From: a virus
Taxonomy: Duplodnaviria; Caudoviricetes
DNA length: 64,000 bases
Reading direction: 5' to 3' (one strand)
IMG/VR virus record: IMGVR_UViG_3300013936_000023
Span: 10,757 to 74,756 of that record
The position numbers were made by a program, and so were the translations under genes. Positions 8,890 through 31,289 of the stretch are shown here, one piece after another. The notes under the pieces were generated by a model. It was given only the letters and a program-made list of their open reading frames with translations, did not search any database and was not told where the DNA came from. Every line of letters begins with the position of its first letter. Position 1 is the stretch's first letter.

Positions 8890-10452
8890 TCACTGGTCGT
8901 CATTCTGCTGGGCAGATTCCGACTTGTCAACAGAGTCAAGCACTGGACGACCACCGGTACTGCCGCCATCCTTGCTCGTGTTGGCGTTCATCAGCAATTG
9001 CAGATTCTTTGTCCAGCCCGTGTTCTTGCTCGCCATAAGGCTGCGCTCAAACAGCACAGGGTTCATTCCCATAGCAGACGCCCACGCCGAGCTATCAAGG
9101 ACGATACCCTTGTCGGCATACTTGAACATCGTGTCAATGCGTTGCTGACGCTCATAGCGATACGTCGCGCCATCAAACACAAACTGCCACTTAAACTTCT
9201 TGGTCAACTGATTGCCAAAGAACGTCATAAACTTACCGAACTGGTCATAGAGCGGACGCATCGTCTGATACGTTTCATTCTGACCAGCCTCGATCTCGGC
9301 ATTGCTCATACGGTCAGAGCTATAAATGACGCGACTGACATTGCTACCAATCGCCGCCGTAGAGCTGGATTGGTTGCTATACATATCGGGATTCTTGTCC
9401 TCATACTGGAAGAACTTGTTATCAGCAGTAGGCATAGCCACAGCCTTGATAGTCGAAGTTAAACCAGCCTTAACCTTGCCCATGAACGTGCCAAGCGTCT
9501 TCGGGTCTATAGAAAATTGGTTTTTCGTCGTGCCGCTCTTGGCATTATCAAAGAGCTGGATAGCACCAGCCAAGATGCCATATGCCGACACCATATCCTT
9601 GTTCAGTTGAAGTTGCTGAACCTCATCATCCGTGATTGCATTTTTGAGAAGTGGCGCGAGATACGGCGTAGTGTTGAAGTTACTCAGGTCAAATTTGAAC
9701 GCCCAAGCACCATCATCCGGACTCGTCTGCGTCCACATTGCATAAGTACCAATACGGTCGTTGAATGGGTTAGTTGGCCGATAGCTCTCAATGGATTTTG
9801 CCTCAGCCCCAAACACGCGCTGATAGTAGCGCTTAAACGCAGGGTCATAAGCGTCAATGTCAACAGATGGTTGGAGAAAATATGACATATCGAAATCAAA
9901 CAACGGGCCAACATCGCTCATGCCCGTAAGCAAGCATCTGTCCTGCGGCAACATCTGAAGCGCGAACTTCATATTGCCACGATTTCCCCACTTGGTCTTT
10001 CTAAACCACGTATAGTAAACCTCATGGGTCAACAGTTGTTCAACAACTTTGCGGAACTCACCGCGATAGTCAAACTTGAGCAGGAAGTCATCAATGCGGC
10101 GTTTATCCGCAAGATAAGCCTCCGAGCCATAGTCAGAATCCTTGGCATTTACGCAAACAAGCTGGAGGTCAAATGCCAGCGCATTCGCATAGCTCTTGAG
10201 AGTCTTTGCGAAAAGTTGGTCAAATACCTTCATATACTCCATGTAGCCCTGAATCGTATCAGCGCTCTCACGGTAAGTCGCCAGAGCCTTTCGCACGCTT
10301 TCAGAAGTTGCCACTCGTGCATCATTGTTCAAATTCTGCAATAAGCTATTGCTCATAAACGGCGACCATACGCCATATTGTTCACCATAAGCAAGACCCG
10401 CCGCAAAATCCACAATATCTTGCACCTGAGATTTAGTTAAACTCTCTTCCAT
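8890..10452 (-). CDS. portal protein
   Basis: 520 aa between terminase and protease. Confidence 0.75.
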   Translation of the reverse strand: MEESLTKSQVQDIVDFAAGLAYGEQYGVWSPFMSNSLLQNLNNDARVATSESVRKALATYRESADTIQGYMEYMKVFDQLFAKTLKSYANALAFDLQLVCVNAKDSDYGSEAYLADKRRIDDFLLKFDYRGEFRKVVEQLLTHEVYYTWFRKTKWGNRGNMKFALQMLPQDRCLLTGMSDVGPLFDFDMSYFLQPSVDIDAYDPAFKRYYQRVFGAEAKSIESYRPTNPFNDRIGTYAMWTQTSPDDGAWAFKFDLSNFNTTPYLAPLLKNAITDDEVQQLQLNKDMVSAYGILAGAIQLFDNAKSGTTKNQFSIDPKTLGTFMGKVKAGLTSTIKAVAMPTADNKFFQYEDKNPDMYSNQSSSTAAIGSNVSRVIYSSDRMSNAEIEAGQNETYQTMRPLYDQFGKFMTFFGNQLTKKFKWQFVFDGATYRYERQQRIDTMFKYADKGIVLDSSAWASAMGMNPVLFERSLMASKNTGWTKNLQLLMNANTSKDGGSTGGRPVLDSVDKSESAQQNDDQ

Positions 10453-10475
10453 CCTTCTCCTCCTTTCATAAAAGT

Positions 10476-12321
10476 TTACCAGACAAGCTCGATATCATCG
10501 AGGTCGTCGTCGTCAGTTTGTTGTTGTCTGAGCCATTCCTGCTCAATCAACGACGCAATATAATTGCCATAAGACAAGATAACGGCTCTATCCTTAGTCC
10601 CGCTTCTTGGCTCGACCAGCTTGATTTTATCGTTGCGATATTCCGGTTTTAGCTCGATACACTCTTGAATGAGCATATCAACCTCACCATACGGCGCAAC
10701 ATCATTCGCAATCTCCTCAGCGCTCATCGTGAAATACGAGCCATCGTCTTCAATTTTATTCTGCCGGTCTTGCATTGACACGAGGAATTTGATATTATTA
10801 AGGTCGAGTTGCTTACGCAATGTAATCCACATCTGGCTGTTGAGGTCTTGCGTGCCAATCATCGGGATGATAATACGTTGCGGGTCATTGTCAACCACGC
10901 GGCTTCTCAAGTCGTCAAGCTTTGTTGTCGGCACAACTTGATATATCAGCATCTCGGAAATGCCGAGACCATGCGGATTCCAATTTGCCCCACGCTCAGG
11001 ATTTTCCTTGGGCTGGGACATATAGTTGTACAAGGTCTCGCCGCCGTTGCGAAGGTCAAGTATATAGTAATCCGCGCCATAGTCATAGACCAGCGCTCTA
11101 ATGCGGTCGGCAGCTCCAAGACTATCGCTCGCCTCGAATTGCTCCATATAATCAACATGACGCTCAAACCGCGTCTTTCGCCAATGCAACGACATACACA
11201 TGATTTGCGTATTATCGTTCTTTTGGCTCGTCGTAGTGTTGGCAAATGCAAAGTCCGAGATAATCAATCGAACCTCATTGTCCTCACGTGGGACATTGTG
11301 CATTTCAGCCCCAAGATATAGTTGCTCAACCGTCGGCGGTCTAAAGCATTGCTCAAGGATTTGGTTTTCCTTAAACGTCTTGAGCTTAAAGAACGCGTCT
11401 TCGGCTTCGCCCACCATCTCATTCAGGTCTTCCATGCGAAAGTCCATCTCTGAATCTTGCTTGCCTTTACGATAGTCAGCCCAAGTCTTCAGACGGTTCT
11501 CAATCGCCATGAAAATATCGCCCGCGAATACATTGCTCACGGTGCGCTTATCGACAAAATGGTTGGTCACAGTCTGCTTGAACGCGCCCCAAAACCATTC
11601 AAACTTATATCGCGCAGACGTGATATAGATGCGCTGGCACTGCTCAACCCAGCGCGGATTTTCCGCATAGAGCGGATTATCAAGATATTTGGCTTGACGC
11701 GGATGCGGCATCTTCTCGAAGACGGCATCCAATATGCCCTTTTTAAGTAAGCGTACCTCTTCGTAAATCAAAAGCGTCGCACGTTCACCACGACTTGATT
11801 CCACACACGGCAAGACAACAATCGTCGAGCCATTTAGCTTGTTCTCAATCCTTGTGCCATCATCTGGCTTAGTGATGACAATGTATTCATGCTCATACAT
11901 ATAGAGCAGATACGGCGAGAGCTTCTTGATAATTTCATCACGTATCTTTTTGTCGGCGAGCTTATTCGCCTGAGACACAGTTGACGAGGTGATAACAATT
12001 TCGCTATATGGATATAGGTTCATCTTGCAAATCGCACCAAGACCAGCCATGAACGACTTAGATAGACCACGAGAGCATATCGCAAAGAATACATTGGATA
12101 TGCCCATGAGGTAAATCATAATCATCTGGAACGGGCGCAACTTGATACCAAGTACCATGTCAACGTAGATGTGCCAGTTGCGGCGATACCTAATAAAGGG
12201 TCAGCCACTCAATGGCATTTTCTTCACGCTCTATGTCTTTTCTGCGTGCAGACCCTTGCTCGGTGGTAATAAGATGGTTTGCCATAAATTTTCTACGCAA
12301 GCCACCCATCTGACTCTTCAT
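10476..12321 (-). CDS. terL: terminase large subunit, interrupted by a 7-nt insertion at 12186-12192
   Basis: LRPFQ Q-motif, Walker A CSRGLSKS, Walker B LIYEE, ITSA motif, C-terminal KDR nuclease motif; N-terminal 43 codons (12321-12193) lie in a different frame. Confidence 0.8.
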
Positions 12322-12335
12322 TCAACATCACCACC

Positions 12336-13199
12336 TTATTGTTCCTCACGCGGAATATCAGGATAATTTCTCGAACCGCCAACAAGATTCTGCAAGCACC
12401 TCATCAAACCATCCCAAGTTTTACCAAATCCGCTAAAATCCTTATATTTCTCAAGGTCTTCACATTCAGCGGGCTTAGTATTCTCAATAGTAAACGCCAT
12501 CCGCTCAATGAATTTCTCTGTCTCGCTTTGCTTATTATCTTTGAAGTCATCAAGTTTCAGCATAGACATAAGCGTTTTGATTTGGTTGAACGTGTCCTTA
12601 TCACCCTCGCCTTTGAACTGCTTCAGCTCTGCGCGACAAAGGTCACGATAACGCAACGTCATAGCCGTATCCATCTCAAGAATGTCCTTAGTGTAATCCT
12701 CAAAATATTCATCAAGCCTCTGACAATCCTCATCGTCATAATCTTTGCCCCAAACCTTATCCCATTGCTTACGTTGAGCATCCATATCTTTCTGCATCGG
12801 CTCTTCGGGCGATTGCTCAATGCCAAGGTCGACAAACTCTGAAAGCTGCATATCGCTATCAAAGATGCCACGATATTGAACGCCGCCATCCTTAAGCAAC
12901 GCAAGGTAAAGCCCAAACGGCTCAGGTCTGCGCCCCTTGCCATCAAGCCCATCATATTGGGCCTTGAGCAAATTGAACTTCTCCCGCAAGAACGGCACGC
13001 CCATCTCCATACAGAGACACCACAACGCGCCCCATCTTGAATCAAGAGCCTTAGACGCGGCATAATATTTCTTGCTTACGCATTCGCGGCAATATGGCAA
13101 AAATTCGCCAGAAGCAATGGGGCTTGGATAAAATTTCACCTTATCCTTTACCGTAGAACAGCAAGGACAATAGCGCTGTTTTGCTCTATTTAATTCCAT
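12336..13199 (-). CDS. zinc-finger protein, putative terminase small subunit
   Basis: N-terminal CPCC...CREC; directly upstream of terL. Confidence 0.5.
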   Translation of the reverse strand: MELNRAKQRYCPCCSTVKDKVKFYPSPIASGEFLPYCRECVSKKYYAASKALDSRWGALWCLCMEMGVPFLREKFNLLKAQYDGLDGKGRRPEPFGLYLALLKDGGVQYRGIFDSDMQLSEFVDLGIEQSPEEPMQKDMDAQRKQWDKVWGKDYDDEDCQRLDEYFEDYTKDILEMDTAMTLRYRDLCRAELKQFKGEGDKDTFNQIKTLMSMLKLDDFKDNKQSETEKFIERMAFTIENTKPAECEDLEKYKDFSGFGKTWDGLMRCLQNLVGGSRNYPDIPREEQ

Positions 13200-13214
13200 A
13201 TCCCCTCAATCCTT

Positions 13215-13775
13215 TTATTCAATATGCAAAGATAGCGAGCCAGTGCGCAACCAGCCCGCTATTTCGCCACAATATTCAGTTGTAGACCGCAGTATCACCG
13301 TTGCTACGGGACTTACGGTAGATTTAGAATCACCTCCTTCAAACTTTGGCCTGAATCTTCCAGACAGTTGGTTGCAAGTGAGATGACCTCCTCTCTTTCG
13401 AGAAATTTCTTCCAGCCGCCATTGATTAGTAGCGGCGAGCGTTTATCCTTTGCTCAAAGCATCTTTTTCAGTTCTCGTATCTAAGAGCTGTCGAGTCGCT
13501 AATTTGTATGCCGCCACACGACAGGTCGGCAATCATTGTTGGGTTTTGCATGAACCGCTTACACGATTCAAGGAACTCTTTGTGCTCATGGCACATGAGA
13601 TAGTTAAGTGTCTCGCCCTGCGCAAGGCCGACAATTTCAGCTTGCTCCTACGGTCTTAGCTTTTCGGCTCAAGTAGGAGACACATCCATTAGGACAATCT
13701 ATCCAAACTTCCTTGGGCGGGCCTGATGCCTCACAAGCGTTTCAGACACAATCACTATATGGTCGCCCAAGAAAG
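13215..13775 (-). ncRNA. large highly structured intergenic RNA (unassigned; ROOL/GOLLD-like size class)
   Basis: No credible ORF in ~560 nt; many stems whose G-U pairs only work on the - strand. Confidence 0.6.
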
Positions 13776-13781
13776 ATTGAA

Positions 13782-14990
13782 TCAAAGGTAATAATTGCGA
13801 CTCCAAGTCTTGCCTTGGTCGTCTGTGTACATTGCCATATAGGCGCTGGGTCTTGCCGAGACGCGAATTTTTTTCGCGAATGCGTCCACGCCAACAATCG
13901 AGCCAACCCGTGTCAGCAGTCTATCGCCAACGTCGGCGTAGCCAATCGCTTTGGATTCGGGGCGATGCAGATGGCCAGCCAAAATTTCATCACAATCGAC
14001 ATTGTAGAGATTGCCGAAATAATCTAACGTGGTCTTGAGGTCTTTATCTTCGCCATGCTGGAACATGATGTTCGTACCACGAATTGTTTTGATGGCAACA
14101 TCTTGATAATCATCAACCTTGATATCGTCAAATCCTGCGAGCCTGAGCTTTAAGAACTCAACCACAATCTTAGTCAGGTTCTCACCCTCAAACTGCGGGC
14201 GAGAGGTCAGGGCGCGAATCACGTCGTGATTTCCGCCAATTGTGACAACATTGATTGGGCAATCCAGATGTTCAGACACAGCCACCAGCCATTCAGCCAT
14301 AAACTCACCGAAACGAATCACGGTATCAACAACTGGCTCACGCAGCTTGGTCAAACTCGAATCCCTGAGAATATTCTCGAAGCAGTCGCCAAGAATCGCC
14401 ACGGTCAAGTCGTCAAACGCAAGGTCATCATCTGCAATCTTGTCGAGCAAGCTCCACATTCTCGCGCACATGATATCCCAACTGTAAGCGTTGACAATCT
14501 CGCCATACATCCCCTTAATTTCAAAGGTCGAGCCAGCGTGAAAATCTGAGATGGCCAACAACGCCGTGGTCTTTGTGGCGTAGTCAATCGGGTGATATTT
14601 AATGCTCTGCCGCTTGATTGGCTCAAGGCGATTCACAGCGGCAATCAGTTGCTCGTGGAACATATCATTTCGAGCTTCTGCACGTTGAGCAGCATTATAT
14701 TCAAGATTCGCCGTCTGGACTTTCAGCTTCTCAGCTTTGATATCGTCGAGCAACTTTCTCAACCCAGCTTCATCATCGCCAGATTCAATTTGTTCATCAT
14801 CGAGATTTTTGACAAAGATGGCGAACACCTTTGCAGCACGACGAATATACTCGTCGCTAAAGACGTCGCGATAATCCTCTCCAAGTACCTCGACCACCCA
14901 TTGCTGATAGTCAATCAACTTGGCATCAAGATTCTCCGTCGCCAATTTCGTTTTCTGTAGGTACGTCATCCTGTTCTCCATTCTTTCCAT
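13782..14990 (-). CDS. calcineurin-like metallophosphoesterase
   Basis: Motifs SDFH, GD, GNHD, HGE, GHLH. Confidence 0.8.
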   Translation of the reverse strand: MERMENRMTYLQKTKLATENLDAKLIDYQQWVVEVLGEDYRDVFSDEYIRRAAKVFAIFVKNLDDEQIESGDDEAGLRKLLDDIKAEKLKVQTANLEYNAAQRAEARNDMFHEQLIAAVNRLEPIKRQSIKYHPIDYATKTTALLAISDFHAGSTFEIKGMYGEIVNAYSWDIMCARMWSLLDKIADDDLAFDDLTVAILGDCFENILRDSSLTKLREPVVDTVIRFGEFMAEWLVAVSEHLDCPINVVTIGGNHDVIRALTSRPQFEGENLTKIVVEFLKLRLAGFDDIKVDDYQDVAIKTIRGTNIMFQHGEDKDLKTTLDYFGNLYNVDCDEILAGHLHRPESKAIGYADVGDRLLTRVGSIVGVDAFAKKIRVSARPSAYMAMYTDDQGKTWSRNYYL

Positions 14991-15871: not shown

Positions 15872-18481
15872 TTATATTGCAATGGCTTCAACGATTTCGC
15901 CGTGCGAAGTTTTTGGCTTTGGAGATTCCCACCTATCCTTTGCTCTTTGTCTCTCAGCAACATCATAACACGCTGCGCCGCAATACTTTTGCAGTTCATC
16001 TCGCGGCTTAAATCGCTTGCCGCAGATTGGGCAAATCTTCCCAGCGCCCACAAGATTCCTCTCGAGGTTGCGCACGATATCCCAACCAAAGCAAGCCCAC
16101 AACATTTTCTTATTGCTGGACTTCTTGACCGTGTAAGCATAAGCCACAAGGCTATTCACAACATACGCCAAATCTTCGCCGCTCGCCGCCAAGATTTCTT
16201 CACGGACTCGCCGCGAGATATAATCATCGCCATCCTTGATGTTGTCCAGCTCTTCGTTGAATTTTGCTCGATTCCGCAACCAGTAGTTATAAGCCTTTAT
16301 GACTTCAGAATCTTCGCGGATTGTATAGTCGACATCTTTGTTGATAAGCATCCGCCAATCAAATTTACCGATGTTTTTGTTGTATTTTACTCTGGCGTCT
16401 GGTATGCTGTTAGATATGCGGTCCATCGTCGAGCCATTGGGTTGCTCAACTTGCCAAGATTCTTTATCTTTAGCATAAATAAAGAACTGCGGGACGCTCG
16501 ACTTAGTATATCGCTTGATGATCTTGTCAATGCTCTTAGGGCGCTCAGGTAGCCATAAAGTCTTGGCGTAGTCAATCACGGCGTTGTTCTCAAAACAGAG
16601 CCATTTGACCACATCAAGTTGCTCTTGGCCAATCTTACCGCTATTCCAAATCTTCGTGATGTTATTGGATATCGGCCCGATATTGCCGCCAGTGTAAGCA
16701 TGAATCATTCCTTGATACATCGACTCCGGCGTAAGCACAGCGGGCTGGGCCTTCTTGAGGTCGTAGGCCAGCGGTCGAATGTCTGTCATGTTGCGTTTGG
16801 CAATCTTGGTGAGCGTGCGGTCTTTGACTACGAGGCTCTTGTCTCCATCACAATCAAACATGAGGTAACGGCTGATAAGGTCGTGAGTAGACGTGTAGAT
16901 GCACTTGGTCTCGCCAAACCACTTGTCAAGCTCAGTTGTGCGCGTGTTGGTCTTGACCGCCCATTCCCTATACAAGTGCGGCGAGCGGAGACACGCCAAC
17001 TCATCACCGTCGCGGTATTGGTTGGTATACACCTCCCCATCCGCAAGCAGACCCCGTGGATTTTGTTCACCCTTGAATAGCCACTCGCAAAAGGCATAAA
17101 GGTCAGGAGACAGAAACAAGTACTTGCCATTCACGCGCAACCGACCGCCACGCGCTTGTTTGACAAGGCTCTGCTTAGCTTGCTTCAGAATCTCGCGGCT
17201 GTAAACATCCTTAAACAGCTCAGGGTAAATCTCAAGTGCCGCTTGCACAGCCGACTTATAGCGGTTGTACGGCGTAGCTCCAAGTAGCCGCATAGTAGTT
17301 TGGTAATCCGCGCCGATAGTCTCAATCTCGTCAACCGTGCGCTTGGTCAACCGCTCAATCTCGCCATCCGTCATATCGCTGAGAGTCTGAAGCATCTGGT
17401 AGTTGATACGGCTCTTAGGGATATACGCCTCCTCGATATTGCAGAAGCTCGCCTCGCAACCATATGCCTTGAATCGCGCTTTATAGCATTCCCAACTCGC
17501 GTAGTATTTCCAGAGCTTGAATTGGCTCTTGGTGAAGATATAGCGAATATCCTCAAGCACAACATTGTGCCGCTGACCGTAGATATCTGTGACCCACCAT
17601 TGGTCAGGCGTACATTTTTCGCGCAGGAATTTGTCGAACGGAAAGTAGACCATCAAACCCTTGACCCACGGCAAACGAACCATGCGCGTCGGCTTGTCAA
17701 GCATGATACCGCAGCCATCCATGTGGGGGATAGGCGTATCTGTCAACTCGCGCTTGATTTCATACGTCATGCCGTCAATGTGGTCAACCTCACCAGCCAC
17801 CAGTGTCTCAAAATCGTCAACCACAATGCTCTTGTCGATATCGAAATCTTCCCAAACGTCCGTAGCAGAGTTCATCAGCGCCAGATATGCCAAGAACTTG
17901 TTGCAATTCATGCCGCCTTGCCGATTGATATCCTCGATGGTCAATCCACACATCAGGCGTTGCTCTACGCGGAGAAATGCGGACTCGCGGATGAACACGG
18001 CCCTCTTGGTGCGGATTTGGCCAGCAGAAGCAGTGAGGAAAATGTAGTGCTCGCCATCCCAATCAAATCCTTGCTTAACAAGATTCTCAAAGACCTGAAA
18101 GAAAAATACGTTGACGATAATCAAATCCTTGGTAAGCTGGAACGTCTTGAGGTTCAAAGCTCGCGTCAAGCTCGACTCAAACAGGTTGATGACGTTGCGG
18201 TCTTTGAGCGCCTCGGCATTGAGCTGTCGCGTGACACCTTCAGCCGCCCGCTTGTCAAGAATCGCGCTCAGGCGTTCTTTATGCTTAGCAAGACAGCGGT
18301 TGTACGCCGATACGCGCCATTGACCATCCCAAGCATTGGTTTTACCATCCTTGAGCCGCGTCTTTAATTTTGCTCGCGCCGAGTACATCTTGGCCATACG
18401 CCGATGAATCGCTTGCTCATCTGGCTGGTAGAATGTACTGGTATCGCACGAATAGAGATATACTTGATTCGTCAAACTCAT
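15872..18481 (-). CDS. yonO: YonO-like single-subunit double-psi-barrel RNA polymerase
   Basis: 869 aa with catalytic FDCDGD (DxDGD) and LRSPH motifs; upstream of the head operon as in SPbeta. Confidence 0.8.
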   Translation of the reverse strand: MSLTNQVYLYSCDTSTFYQPDEQAIHRRMAKMYSARAKLKTRLKDGKTNAWDGQWRVSAYNRCLAKHKERLSAILDKRAAEGVTRQLNAEALKDRNVINLFESSLTRALNLKTFQLTKDLIIVNVFFFQVFENLVKQGFDWDGEHYIFLTASAGQIRTKRAVFIRESAFLRVEQRLMCGLTIEDINRQGGMNCNKFLAYLALMNSATDVWEDFDIDKSIVVDDFETLVAGEVDHIDGMTYEIKRELTDTPIPHMDGCGIMLDKPTRMVRLPWVKGLMVYFPFDKFLREKCTPDQWWVTDIYGQRHNVVLEDIRYIFTKSQFKLWKYYASWECYKARFKAYGCEASFCNIEEAYIPKSRINYQMLQTLSDMTDGEIERLTKRTVDEIETIGADYQTTMRLLGATPYNRYKSAVQAALEIYPELFKDVYSREILKQAKQSLVKQARGGRLRVNGKYLFLSPDLYAFCEWLFKGEQNPRGLLADGEVYTNQYRDGDELACLRSPHLYREWAVKTNTRTTELDKWFGETKCIYTSTHDLISRYLMFDCDGDKSLVVKDRTLTKIAKRNMTDIRPLAYDLKKAQPAVLTPESMYQGMIHAYTGGNIGPISNNITKIWNSGKIGQEQLDVVKWLCFENNAVIDYAKTLWLPERPKSIDKIIKRYTKSSVPQFFIYAKDKESWQVEQPNGSTMDRISNSIPDARVKYNKNIGKFDWRMLINKDVDYTIREDSEVIKAYNYWLRNRAKFNEELDNIKDGDDYISRRVREEILAASGEDLAYVVNSLVAYAYTVKKSSNKKMLWACFGWDIVRNLERNLVGAGKICPICGKRFKPRDELQKYCGAACYDVAERQRAKDRWESPKPKTSHGEIVEAIAI

Positions 18482-29802: not shown

Positions 29803-29877
29803 CGGGGAGTAAGCCAATGATAGACGGCAGCATTTGGGATGCTGAGGTTGCAGGTTTGAGTCCTGCCTCTCCGACCA
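29803..29877 (+). tRNA. tRNA-Pro(UGG)
   Basis: Acceptor CGGGGAG/CTCTCCG, anticodon arm CAGCA-TTTGGGA-TGCTG, T-arm GCAGG/CCTGC, encoded CCA. Confidence 0.85.
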
Positions 29878-31212: not shown

Positions 31213-31289
31213 GCTATCATAGCTCAACTGGATAGAGCAGCGTTCTTATAAAGCGCAGGCCGGTTGTTCGAGTCAACCTGATAGCACCA
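31213..31289 (+). tRNA. tRNA-Ile(UAU)
   Basis: Acceptor GCTATCA/TGATAGC, D-arm GCTC/GAGC, anticodon arm GCGTT-CTTATAA-AGCGC, TTCGAGT loop, CCA. Confidence 0.85.

What the first reader, a model, noticed from the sequence alone, without database searches (positions are those of the whole stretch)
13200..13780. ~560-nt ornate structured RNA at the head of the terminase-portal-capsid operon
On the - strand this ORF-free gap has nested stems: TTGGGCG/CGCCCAA, GTCTGA/TCAGGC, GTGTCTC/GAGACAC, TCCTAC/GTAGGA, GCCTTG/CAGGGC, CTCATG/CATGAG, TGCCG/CGGCA, GCCGCT/GGCGGC, TCTC-GAAA-GAGA (GNRA) and ATAGCGGGC/GCTCGCTAT. It also shows long-range CAAGGAA/TTCCTTG pairing, a possible pseudoknot CTGTCG/CGACAG and a possible 5'-3' closing helix. 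The G-U pairs fix the strand as minus. The size class matches large phage-associated RNAs such as ROOL/GOLLD, but its position before terS also fits a late-operon antiterminator or a packaging-related RNA.
Basis: partly seen in the sequence, partly recalled or inferred. Interest (0 to 1): 0.75.

Follow-up and report, generated by a model that had tools for sequence, protein, structure and literature searches.

The report
New modular phage leader RNA family
The gene-free gap holds a real structured RNA that matches no Rfam family; related gut-phage contigs keep its folds, always just ahead of the DNA-packaging genes, and its core holds a tiny reading frame between two ribosome-binding sequences.

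Summary
Confirmed. Window 13200-13781 (minus strand) has no credible ORF. It lies between a YonJ-like exonuclease gene and a YonG-like gene, which is followed by terminase and portal genes.

The same element sits in this slot in 55 of 75 distinct related loci, all SPbeta-like phages with a YonO-type RNA polymerase. It spans about 200 to 720 nt. Every true copy found was in this slot, on the gene strand.

Three domains show strong covariation: 95%, 98% and 95% of cells paired, against 31-59% when partners are slid. G.U pairs outnumber A.C 263 to 24, which fixes the strand. No Rfam 15 family matches, so it is not ROOL, GOLLD, OLE, pRNA or an intron.

The layout is modular. Optional 5' domains precede a universal core of about 135 nt and a terminal hairpin, which is a textbook terminator in several lineages. 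The core holds GGAGG, a UUG or GUG start, 10-15 poorly conserved codons, and a stop abutting a second, STAB-SD-like GGAGG.

Best reading (0.42): a cis-acting leader of the packaging/late operon that loads ribosomes. The main rival is a trans-acting ncRNA. No expression data could be obtained.

The scan had noted this same stretch of the same genome once more (e1-5868519), not on other DNA.

The parts
13708..13775 (-). p1: long irregular 5' hairpin (outer helix 13775-13764 with 13719-13708; inner helix 13747-13742 with 13726-13721). Its apical loop is conserved. It starts 7 nt after the exonuclease stop codon.
   Evidence: Alignment A5 of 23 sequences: 98% of cells paired against 33-44% when slid; 6 of 11 pairs change on both sides; 0 of 500 shuffles reach the score.
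13698..13707 (-). Motif B, degenerate in this phage. Most homologues have UUUGAAUAUA here, always directly after a hairpin.
   Evidence: Domain map and site list. Its role is unknown.
13645..13679 (-). p1b: optional second hairpin with conserved internal-loop words.
   Evidence: nhmmer alignment of module p1. The closing stem differs in sequence between lineages but stays paired.
13601..13634 (-). Hairpin E: conserved flanks around a variable stem-loop, present in most homologues.
13569..13599 (-). p2: small hairpin followed by a purine-rich word. Found only in close kin, and twice in the SPbeta yonN-yonK non-coding gap.
   Evidence: nhmmer against the SPbeta gap: E 1.8e-5 and 3.8e-4. The stem varies in a compensatory way between the window, L002 and SPbeta.
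13412..13547 (-). p3 domain, present in a subset of homologues. It holds helix Pa (13530-13527 with 13513-13510), two small hairpins, hairpin P0 (13436-13415) with an invariant 9-nt loop word, and a possible pseudoknot (13524-13519 with 13493-13488).
   Evidence: Alignment A6: 94.7% of cells paired against 31-59% when slid; 10 of 17 pairs change on both sides. The pseudoknot is only suggestive.
13272..13408 (-). Universal core (model R1). P1 is 13404-13391. P2 is 13388-13383 with 13333-13328. P3 is 13365-13349. P4/P5 is 13319-13286.
   Evidence: A covariance model of 149 positions and 26 pairs finds 52 copies, including lineages not in the seed. 95.4% of cells are paired against about 40% when slid; 21 of 26 pairs change on both sides; 0 of 500 shuffles reach the score.
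13339..13377 (-). Mini-ORF: UUG start, 12 codons and a UGA stop. SD1 (GGAGG) lies at 13391-13387, 9 nt upstream of the start. The stop abuts SD2 (13339-13333), which is extended by the 3' strand of P2.
   Evidence: The frame is kept in 34 of 35 seed sequences and in all later-found lineages at 10-15 codons. Indels keep the frame, but the peptide is not conserved.
13272..13283 (-). Motif K: a nearly invariant single-stranded word ending the core. It shares UGAAUAU with motif B.
   Evidence: It is duplicated in tandem in L047 and L054.
13226..13267 (-). Terminal hairpin (about 14-18 bp) with a weak U-rich tail, ending 26 nt before the start codon.
   Evidence: RNAfold of 40 homologues: every lineage has a strong hairpin here with unrelated sequence. 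It is a stem plus U5-6 terminator in L050, L051, L067, L069 and the L004 type. The simple terminator scan did not call it in the window.
13197..13207 (-). Shine-Dalgarno sequence and ATG of the YonG-like gene (ORF 12336-13199).
   Evidence: Distant homology to SPbeta YonG: E 8e-5, with the same N-terminal four-Cys pattern.

Best explanation
Shown: the gap encodes a structured RNA, read in the same direction as the genes, that belongs to a family matching nothing in Rfam 15. The family is old within one clade of SPbeta-like phages of gut Clostridia that carry a YonO-type RNA polymerase. It is modular: optional 5' domains (p1, p1b, E, p2, p3), a universal core of about 135 nt, and a terminator-type hairpin 25-45 nt before the first packaging gene.

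Inferred: it works in cis as the leader of the packaging/late operon, and its core is a ribosome-loading device. SD1 and a UUG (or GUG) start open a 10-15-codon frame in which only the act of translation matters. That frame runs through helices P2a and P3. It stops exactly at SD2, a GAAGGAGG word (GAAAGGAGG in most relatives) that, with the following bases, is complementary to about 11-13 nt of the 16S rRNA 3' tail, like the STAB-SD stabiliser of Bacillus cry3A mRNA. In the folded RNA, helix P2 pairs the bases just after SD1 with the bases just after SD2, so folding and ribosome binding exclude each other.

I propose that a ribosome engaged or parked here protects the long downstream mRNA from 5'-to-3' decay of the RNase J1 type. 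It may also help expression past the terminal hairpin. That hairpin otherwise insulates the late genes from upstream transcription. The peripheral domains would act as 5' protective or protein-binding modules.
For: Real RNA on the gene strand:
- Covariation in three domains.
- G.U 263 against A.C 24.
- 52 covariance-model hits plus 7 more.

Linkage in cis:
- Every true copy lies directly upstream of the YonG-like gene on its strand. A 17-mer scan of IMG/VR gave 17 of 20 hits in that context, and the other three fail the model.
- There is no second copy in the window or elsewhere in the contigs searched.
- On the YonG tree, RNA presence needs only 4 changes against a mean of 17.7 for shuffled labels, so it is inherited with the gene.

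Ribosome features:
- The SD1-start-ORF-stop-SD2 layout is kept at 10-15 codons in about ten length variants, with frame-preserving indels such as a 2-nt plus a 1-nt deletion, and with no peptide conservation.
- P2 covaries, CAY with RUG.

Other support:
- STAB-SD precedent: an SD-like word in a 5' UTR binds 30S and blocks RNase J1 (PMC4113751).
- Terminator-type hairpin before the gene in all lineages.
- No sigma-70-type promoter on the minus strand of the gap.
- Analogy: in SPbeta the YonO-dependent late operon starts upstream of 'an unannotated non-coding RNA' (PMC5467207). That gap shares the p2 hairpin and the P0 loop word with this RNA.
Against: - Ends, processing and translation of the mini-ORF are all inferred.
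- The RNA is dispensable. L010, L097, L012 and L019 encode YonO-like polymerases and the same gene order, but have no copy of the core anywhere.
- A simple stabiliser would not need invariant loop words and three covarying domains.
- SD2 is partly sequestered by P2.
- The mini-ORF ends 100-250 nt before the terminal hairpin, so classical leader-peptide attenuation is excluded.
- One sequence (L033) has lost the frame.
- A 3' terminator and a tRNA-like skipping-rope RNA in the slot of p1 (L074) are what stand-alone ncRNA genes look like.
Confidence: 0.42

Rival explanations
1. It is a stand-alone, trans-acting non-coding RNA, or a small island of several. It sits in a permissive slot between the early/middle genes and the late genes, ends at its own terminator, and may be processed at the UGAAUAU linkers. 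Possible roles are host takeover or counter-defence, as suspected for the tRNA-like and DUF3800-associated RNAs found at the matching place in SPbeta.
For: - Canonical intrinsic terminators end the element in several lineages.
- The modules are optional and exchangeable. In L074 an Rfam skipping-rope RNA (47.6 bits, gathering score 36.7) occupies the p1 slot.
- The SPbeta gap holds DUF3800-VIII (47.5 bits, gathering score 40.2) and a sub-threshold skipping-rope match.
- Invariant loop words suggest specific partners.
- The RNA is dispensable in relatives.
Against: - Position and orientation next to one gene were the same in all 55 distinct loci that carry the RNA.
- No promoter was detected.
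- The tail of the terminal hairpin is weak in the window lineage.
- RNA-negative relatives also carry a hairpin at this spot, so the hairpin belongs to the gene junction rather than to the RNA.
Confidence: 0.3
2. It is a processive antitermination or read-through element. The folded core modifies the transcribing polymerase (host or YonO-like) so that it passes the terminal hairpin and later terminators of the long late operon, as HK022 put RNA or the Bacillus EAR element do.
For: - A structured RNA sits directly upstream of a terminator at the head of a long operon.
- The terminator sequence changes completely between lineages while the core stays constant. That fits factor-like action rather than a competing antiterminator helix.
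Against: - Relatives without the RNA keep a terminator-like hairpin before the same gene and still must express it.
- Nothing links the core to a polymerase.
- This reading does not explain the conserved mini-ORF.
- There is no similarity to put or EAR in Rfam.
Confidence: 0.13
3. It is a packaging RNA that acts with the portal or terminase, as phi29 pRNA does, or an RNA or DNA signal for the YonG-like protein, such as a pac site.
For: The only support is its position next to the YonG-like, terminase and portal genes.
Against: - No match to the pRNA model.
- These phages have a YonF-type large terminase.
- In SPbeta-like phages the packaging start maps between yonR and yonP, not at yonG.
- Relatives with the same packaging genes lack the RNA.
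- The strand-specific G.U pattern argues against a double-stranded DNA site.
Confidence: 0.05
4. It is not a functional RNA: the gap is decaying coding sequence, a DNA-level promoter or origin, or chance stems.
For: The single-sequence fold is only 2.4-2.5 sd better than shuffles, and this holds on both strands.
Against: - DNA identity in the gap exceeds what 42-51% protein identity of the flanking gene would predict.
- Dozens of pairs change on both sides.
- Indels are not in multiples of three outside the mini-ORF.
- The wobble pattern is strand-specific.
Confidence: 0.02

Closest known systems
The non-coding leader of the SPbeta late operon (yonN-yonK gap; 'unannotated non-coding RNA' of Forrest et al. 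2017, PMC5467207)
   Same: Both lie in a YonO-polymerase phage, between the polymerase/HU/exonuclease genes and the structural genes, on the gene strand, in a long gap without ORFs. They share the p2 hairpin with its following purine-rich word (two copies in SPbeta, E 1.8e-5 and 3.8e-4) and the P0 loop word.
   Different: The SPbeta gap is 1.7 kb and lies before yonK, not before yonG. It has no match to the core model (whole record). It holds Rfam DUF3800-VIII and a skipping-rope-like motif instead. Homology is limited to peripheral modules.
STAB-SD, the 5' mRNA stabiliser of Bacillus thuringiensis cry3A (Agaisse and Lereclus 1996, as reviewed in PMC4113751)
   Same: Both are Shine-Dalgarno-like words complementary to the 16S 3' end, placed in a long 5' untranslated region of a Firmicute-type host and not used to start a gene.
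   Different: Here the word is embedded in a covarying helix. It is directly preceded by a translated-looking mini-ORF and surrounded by a large conserved fold. Stabilisation has not been tested.
[quoted passage not shown] 2017, PMC5737381)
   Same: All are phage- or prophage-associated structured RNAs of Firmicutes that end in a terminator. A skipping-rope RNA sits in the same intergenic slot in L074 and probably in SPbeta.
   Different: The window has no model match. It is much larger and modular, and it has a fixed cis position.
ROOL and GOLLD large phage-associated RNAs
   Same: The size class (about 580 nt here), the link to phages and the multi-domain fold are alike.
   Different: No match to either covariance model. 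Those RNAs are often near tRNA genes and have no fixed position before one gene. No embedded mini-ORF is known for them (this last point from my own knowledge).
Leader-peptide attenuators (erm and cat leaders) and the RNA antiterminators HK022 put and Bacillus EAR
   Same: The first group shares a short leader ORF with its own SD in a structured leader. The second shares a structured RNA ahead of terminators in a long operon.
   Different: The mini-ORF peptide is not conserved, and the ORF ends more than 100 nt before the terminator. No alternative antiterminator helix is conserved. There is no sequence or model similarity.

Membership tests
ROOL (Rfam), GOLLD (Rfam), OLE, group I and II introns | A match to the family covariance model (sequence plus structure). 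| tested here: not met
   cmscan of the whole window at gathering scores finds only two tRNAs. With permissive filters on 13000-14000, nothing scores better than E 0.98, and those hits are chance hits to unrelated families.
phi29-type prohead RNA (pRNA) | A match to the Rfam pRNA model, and a phi29-like packaging motor that needs an RNA ring. | tested here: not met
   No model match. The phage has a YonF-type large terminase.
skipping-rope / DUF3800-VIII RNAs | A match to the Rfam model at or above the gathering score. | tested here: not met
   No match in the window. Matches do exist in the same slot in L074 and in the SPbeta gap.
Riboswitch or T-box type attenuator | A conserved aptamer whose 3' part competes with the 5' strand of the terminator (a mutually exclusive antiterminator). 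| tested here: not met
   The sequence between motif K and the terminal hairpin, and the hairpin itself, differ completely between lineages, with no conserved alternative pairing. No Rfam riboswitch or T-box match.
STAB-SD type 5' stabiliser | A Shine-Dalgarno-like word complementary to the 16S 3' end, in a 5' UTR, with no start codon at working distance. | tested here: met
   SD2 is conserved in all copies. The RUG after it pairs in P2, and no ORF is conserved behind it. The 16S tail sequence is taken from general knowledge.
STAB-SD type 5' stabiliser | It binds 30S subunits and lengthens the half-life of the downstream mRNA. | not testable with these tools
   This needs toeprinting and decay assays.
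Leader-peptide (ribosome-mediated) attenuation | A short ORF with its own SD in the leader. | tested here: met
   SD1, a 7-10 nt spacer, a UUG or GUG start and 10-15 codons are conserved.
Leader-peptide (ribosome-mediated) attenuation | The ribosome's position on the ORF directly decides whether the terminator or the antiterminator forms. | tested here: not met
   The stop codon lies 100-250 nt upstream of the terminal hairpin, with the folded helices P4/P5 in between.
Leader of a YonO-dependent late operon | Transcribed by the YonO-type polymerase from a start site upstream of the element. | not testable with these tools
   The YonO promoter is undefined. My attempt to place the SPbeta start site at the UGAAUAU word failed.

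The most novel reading that the evidence does not exclude
The core is a new kind of RNA device: a structured RNA that uses one round of translation of a content-free mini-cistron to unfold itself. This delivers the ribosome's small subunit onto an adjacent extended anti-16S word. The result is a parked ribosome that gates the stability or expression of a phage late operon of about 20 kb or more, with accessory domains (one of them exchangeable for a tRNA-like RNA) that tune it. If so, it would be a large natural ribosome-dependent riboregulator specific to phages that carry a YonO-type polymerase.
Probability: 0.2. Interest if true: 0.85.

Novelty: new variant of a known kind. Interest (0 to 1): 0.77.

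Why it matters
Large conserved bacterial and phage RNAs of unknown function are rare, and they have repeatedly led to new biochemistry (ROOL, GOLLD, OLE, raiA).

This one comes with an unusually clean data set:
- about 55 distinct loci that carry the RNA;
- three covarying domains;
- a fixed genomic position;
- natural deletion variants from 200 to 720 nt that mark out a minimal core;
- natural relatives that lack the RNA.

It has a feature I know of in no other large RNA: a conserved reading frame whose peptide does not matter, held between two ribosome-binding words that pair with each other's flanks.

It also gives a comparative handle on the 'unannotated non-coding RNA' at the head of the YonO-transcribed late operon of the model phage SPbeta. 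Hypotheses could be tested there by genetics.

Tried and rejected
1. UGAAUAU as the YonO start site. The 'PYonO primer extension Fwd' oligo of Forrest et al. begins at this word in the SPbeta gap. The methods state that Fwd primers only made PCR fragments for sequencing ladders. The start site therefore lies somewhere in the 245 nt downstream, and the link is dropped. The role of motifs B and K stays open.
2. blastn of the gap against 50,697 phage records: no match.
3. Core model against SPbeta, Clostridium phage D-1873 and four RNA-negative relatives: nothing significant.
4. Core model against 151 genomes of the order of the one MAG that holds a copy: only that MAG matched.
6. Identity of the YonG-like protein. 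Pfam and NCBIfam gave no hit. PHROGs gave phrog_3314, of unknown function. A PDB sequence profile found nothing. The AlphaFold model has pLDDT 72, and Foldseek against PDB gave no match at E <= 0.001. Calling it 'terS' therefore rests on position only.
7. Pseudoknot test by longest loop-to-downstream helix against shuffled loops: not significant.
8. A second ORF behind SD2, or an AUC start at the invariant AUCU: read by eye in several lineages, neither frame nor length is conserved.
9. K-turn, T-loop and tRNA-like readings of the core: checked by eye against the published criteria, no fit.
10. Mobile element with a target-site duplication (motifs B and K as the duplicated word). The YonG tree shows vertical inheritance with 3-4 changes, so this is unlikely.
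11. One literature search (yonK/yonN/non-coding RNA) returned only unrelated papers.
The coordinates of the parts were instead read from the ruler.

Full report
THE OBSERVATION

On the minus strand, an exonuclease-like ORF (13782-14990; PHROG 284, Metallophos_2) is followed by 582 nt without a credible ORF. Next comes a 287-aa ORF (12336-13199), then a 560-aa ORF and a portal gene. A YonO-type RNA polymerase gene (15872-18481; Pfam RdRP; PHROG 8308, E 5.6e-254) and an HU-like gene lie just upstream.

The 560-aa protein is a YonF-type terminase (28% identity, E 3e-58). The 287-aa protein is a distant YonG homologue (E 8e-5) with the same N-terminal four-cysteine pattern. The phage is therefore a relative of SPbeta; its YonO-like protein is 43-46% identical to those of SPbeta-like and Clostridium phages.

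Folding the gap alone gives only modest support: z = -2.47 on the minus strand and -2.38 on the plus strand. No Rfam 15 family matches, even with permissive filters. No phage record matches by blastn.

COMPARATIVE EVIDENCE

I searched IMG/VR, metagenome and genome contigs with the YonG-like protein and then with a profile of it. This gave about 130 loci.

The DNA upstream of the gene is more conserved than the gene would predict. For example, it is 71% identical over 320 nt where the protein is 51% identical, and 73-76% identical over the core where the protein is 42% identical.

Iterated nhmmer, and then a covariance model built on a 35-sequence seed (R1: 149 positions, 26 pairs), found the element in 52 loci, 50 of them distinct. 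Several lineages were not in the seed. Every hit is on the gene strand and directly upstream of the YonG-like gene.

An independent 17-mer scan of IMG/VR gave 20 hits. Seventeen lie in the exonuclease-RNA-YonG context; seven loci of new contigs or regions among them were checked with the model and all match. The other three have neither flanking gene nor a model match.

Counting by distinct YonG-like proteins, 55 carry the RNA and 20 do not; 3 more could not be scored because their loci hold too little upstream DNA.

STRUCTURE

- Core: 95.4% of cells form standard pairs, against 38-51% when partners are slid. 21 of 26 pairs change on both sides. 0 of 500 shuffles reach the observed score.
- 5' hairpin p1: 98% paired against 33-44% slid.
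- p3 domain with hairpin P0: 94.7% paired against 31-59% slid.
- Strand: over the three alignments, G.U cells number 263 and A.C cells 24.

The details are under the observation check.

ARCHITECTURE

The order of modules is the same everywhere:

p1 hairpin - motif B - [p1b] - hairpin E - [p2] - [p3 with P0] - core - [insertion hairpins] - motif K - terminal hairpin - SD and start codon of the gene.

Brackets mark optional parts. The intergenic region ranges from about 200 nt (L067, L069: essentially core plus hairpin) to about 720 nt (L055, L089). Nature has thus already defined a minimal core.

The terminal hairpin has unrelated sequences in different lineages. In several it is a textbook stem-plus-U-run terminator. 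In the window its tail is weak.

THE MINI-ORF

Inside the core, a GGAGG is followed after 7-10 nt by UUG (GUG in one lineage). An open frame of 10-15 codons follows, and its stop codon directly abuts a second purine-rich word.

This layout holds in 34 of 35 seed sequences and in all later-found lineages (L065/L066, L070, L074, L076, L077 and the L143 group). The length differences are always in frame. In one group a 2-nt and a 1-nt deletion compensate each other, and L077 has a 9-nt insertion relative to its kin.

The same conserved nucleotides are read in different frames in different groups, and the peptides are unrelated. The frame is therefore selected, but the peptide is not.

Helix P2 pairs the six bases after the first GGAGG with the six bases after the second, with CAY/RUG covariation. 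The start codon's UU pairs with the AA of the second word. Folding and ribosome access therefore exclude each other.

The second word plus the 3' strand of P2 is complementary to some 11-13 nt of the 16S rRNA 3' tail (tail sequence from general knowledge). In most relatives it contains the GAAAGGAGG word that I recall, from the primary paper and not from the review read here, as the cry3A STAB-SD. That element binds 30S subunits and blocks RNase J1 (PMC4113751).

CONTEXT IN SPBETA-LIKE PHAGES

Forrest et al. showed that YonO transcribes the SPbeta late genes as one operon. [quoted passage not shown]

That 1.7-kb gap has no match to the core (whole record). It does contain:
- two copies of the p2 hairpin, with compensatory stem changes (E 1.8e-5 and 3.8e-4);
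- the P0 loop word;
- Rfam DUF3800-VIII, above its gathering score;
- a sub-threshold skipping-rope match.

In L074 a bona fide skipping-rope RNA occupies the p1 slot. A 2026 preprint reports that skipping-rope is a tRNA-like fold. The head of the late or packaging genes in these phages is thus a site where structured RNA modules accumulate.

DISPENSABILITY AND HISTORY

Four relatives (two of them 93-95% complete) and SPbeta lack the core anywhere in their records. All of them encode YonO-like polymerases, as do RNA-positive genomes. In RNA-negative relatives the YonG-like gene follows the upstream gene within about 50-90 nt, often with a terminator-like hairpin.

On a quick maximum-likelihood tree of 75 YonG-like proteins, presence of the RNA needs only 4 changes, at least 3 of them forced. 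Shuffled labels need 17.7 on average, and 0 of 500 shuffles are as low. RNA-positive lineages lie on both sides of the midpoint root. The RNA is therefore old and vertically inherited with the gene, probably lost a few times; the tree, rooted at its midpoint for drawing only, cannot tell loss from gain. It is not a hopping element.

Among 151 sampled genomes of the order of the one MAG that holds a copy, only that MAG matched. Hosts are inferred to be gut Clostridia, from the MAG titles and the sample sources.

INTERPRETATION

Shown: this is a real, modular, strand-specific structured RNA family with no Rfam match. It has a fixed cis position, a terminator-type 3' hairpin and a conserved mini-cistron between two ribosome-binding words.

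Inferred (0.42): it is the leader of the packaging/late operon, and its core loads or parks a ribosome to protect or activate the long mRNA. The terminal hairpin insulates the late genes.

Rivals:
- A trans-acting RNA or RNA island ending at its own terminator (0.30).
- A processive read-through element (0.13).
- A packaging RNA or pac-type signal (0.05). This is disfavoured because the SPbeta packaging start maps between yonR and yonP, and RNA-negative relatives keep the same packaging genes.
- Not a functional RNA (0.02).

No expression data could be obtained. Transcript ends and translation remain the decisive unknowns.

Noticed in passing
L022 (SPbeta NC_001884) 9153-10835, minus strand: The 1.7-kb ORF-free gap between yonN and yonK holds Rfam DUF3800-VIII (9410-9475, 47.5 bits) and a sub-threshold skipping-rope match right after the yonN stop (10720-10829, 29.6 bits, E 2.5e-4). 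It also holds two p2-like hairpins. None of these is annotated in the record.
   Followed up: partly
L074 860-928 (+): A skipping-rope (tRNA-like) RNA above the gathering score lies directly 5' of a divergent copy of the core. It sits in the slot that hairpin p1 holds in other phages.
   Followed up: partly
G001:C1:3062-6750 and G002:C1:78209-81700 (contigs of L010 and L097): The YonO-like polymerase gene matches in two pieces separated by about 1 kb. Several SPbeta-like Bacillus phages show the same split. This suggests an inserted element (intron, intein or nuclease gene) at a recurrent site.
   Followed up: no
window 10476-12321 (-): The terminase ORF of 560 aa aligns to SPbeta YonF only from YonF residue 59 onward. 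A separate 43-aa ORF (12190-12321) lies just upstream. This agrees with the earlier notes that the terminase N-terminus is interrupted.
   Followed up: no
L047 2380-2400 and L054 2380-2400 (approx.): Motif K is duplicated in tandem, as two copies of the 12-nt word 15 nt apart. L056 and L089 carry a second, partial p1-like hairpin directly after the first.
   Followed up: no
L043 and L097 about 2415-2470; L012 about 2905-2945: Relatives without the RNA still have a GAAUAU-type word and/or a terminator-like hairpin between the upstream gene and the YonG-like gene. That hairpin may be an ancestral junction feature.
   Followed up: partly
window 29803-29874 and 31213-31286 (+): Two tRNA genes were found by the Rfam tRNA model.
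   Followed up: no
window 13641-13631, 13472-13460, 13282-13269 (-): The word CUGAA(A/U) recurs in three single-stranded linkers between domains of the RNA. It could be a processing or protein-binding signal. Its significance was not tested formally.
   Followed up: no
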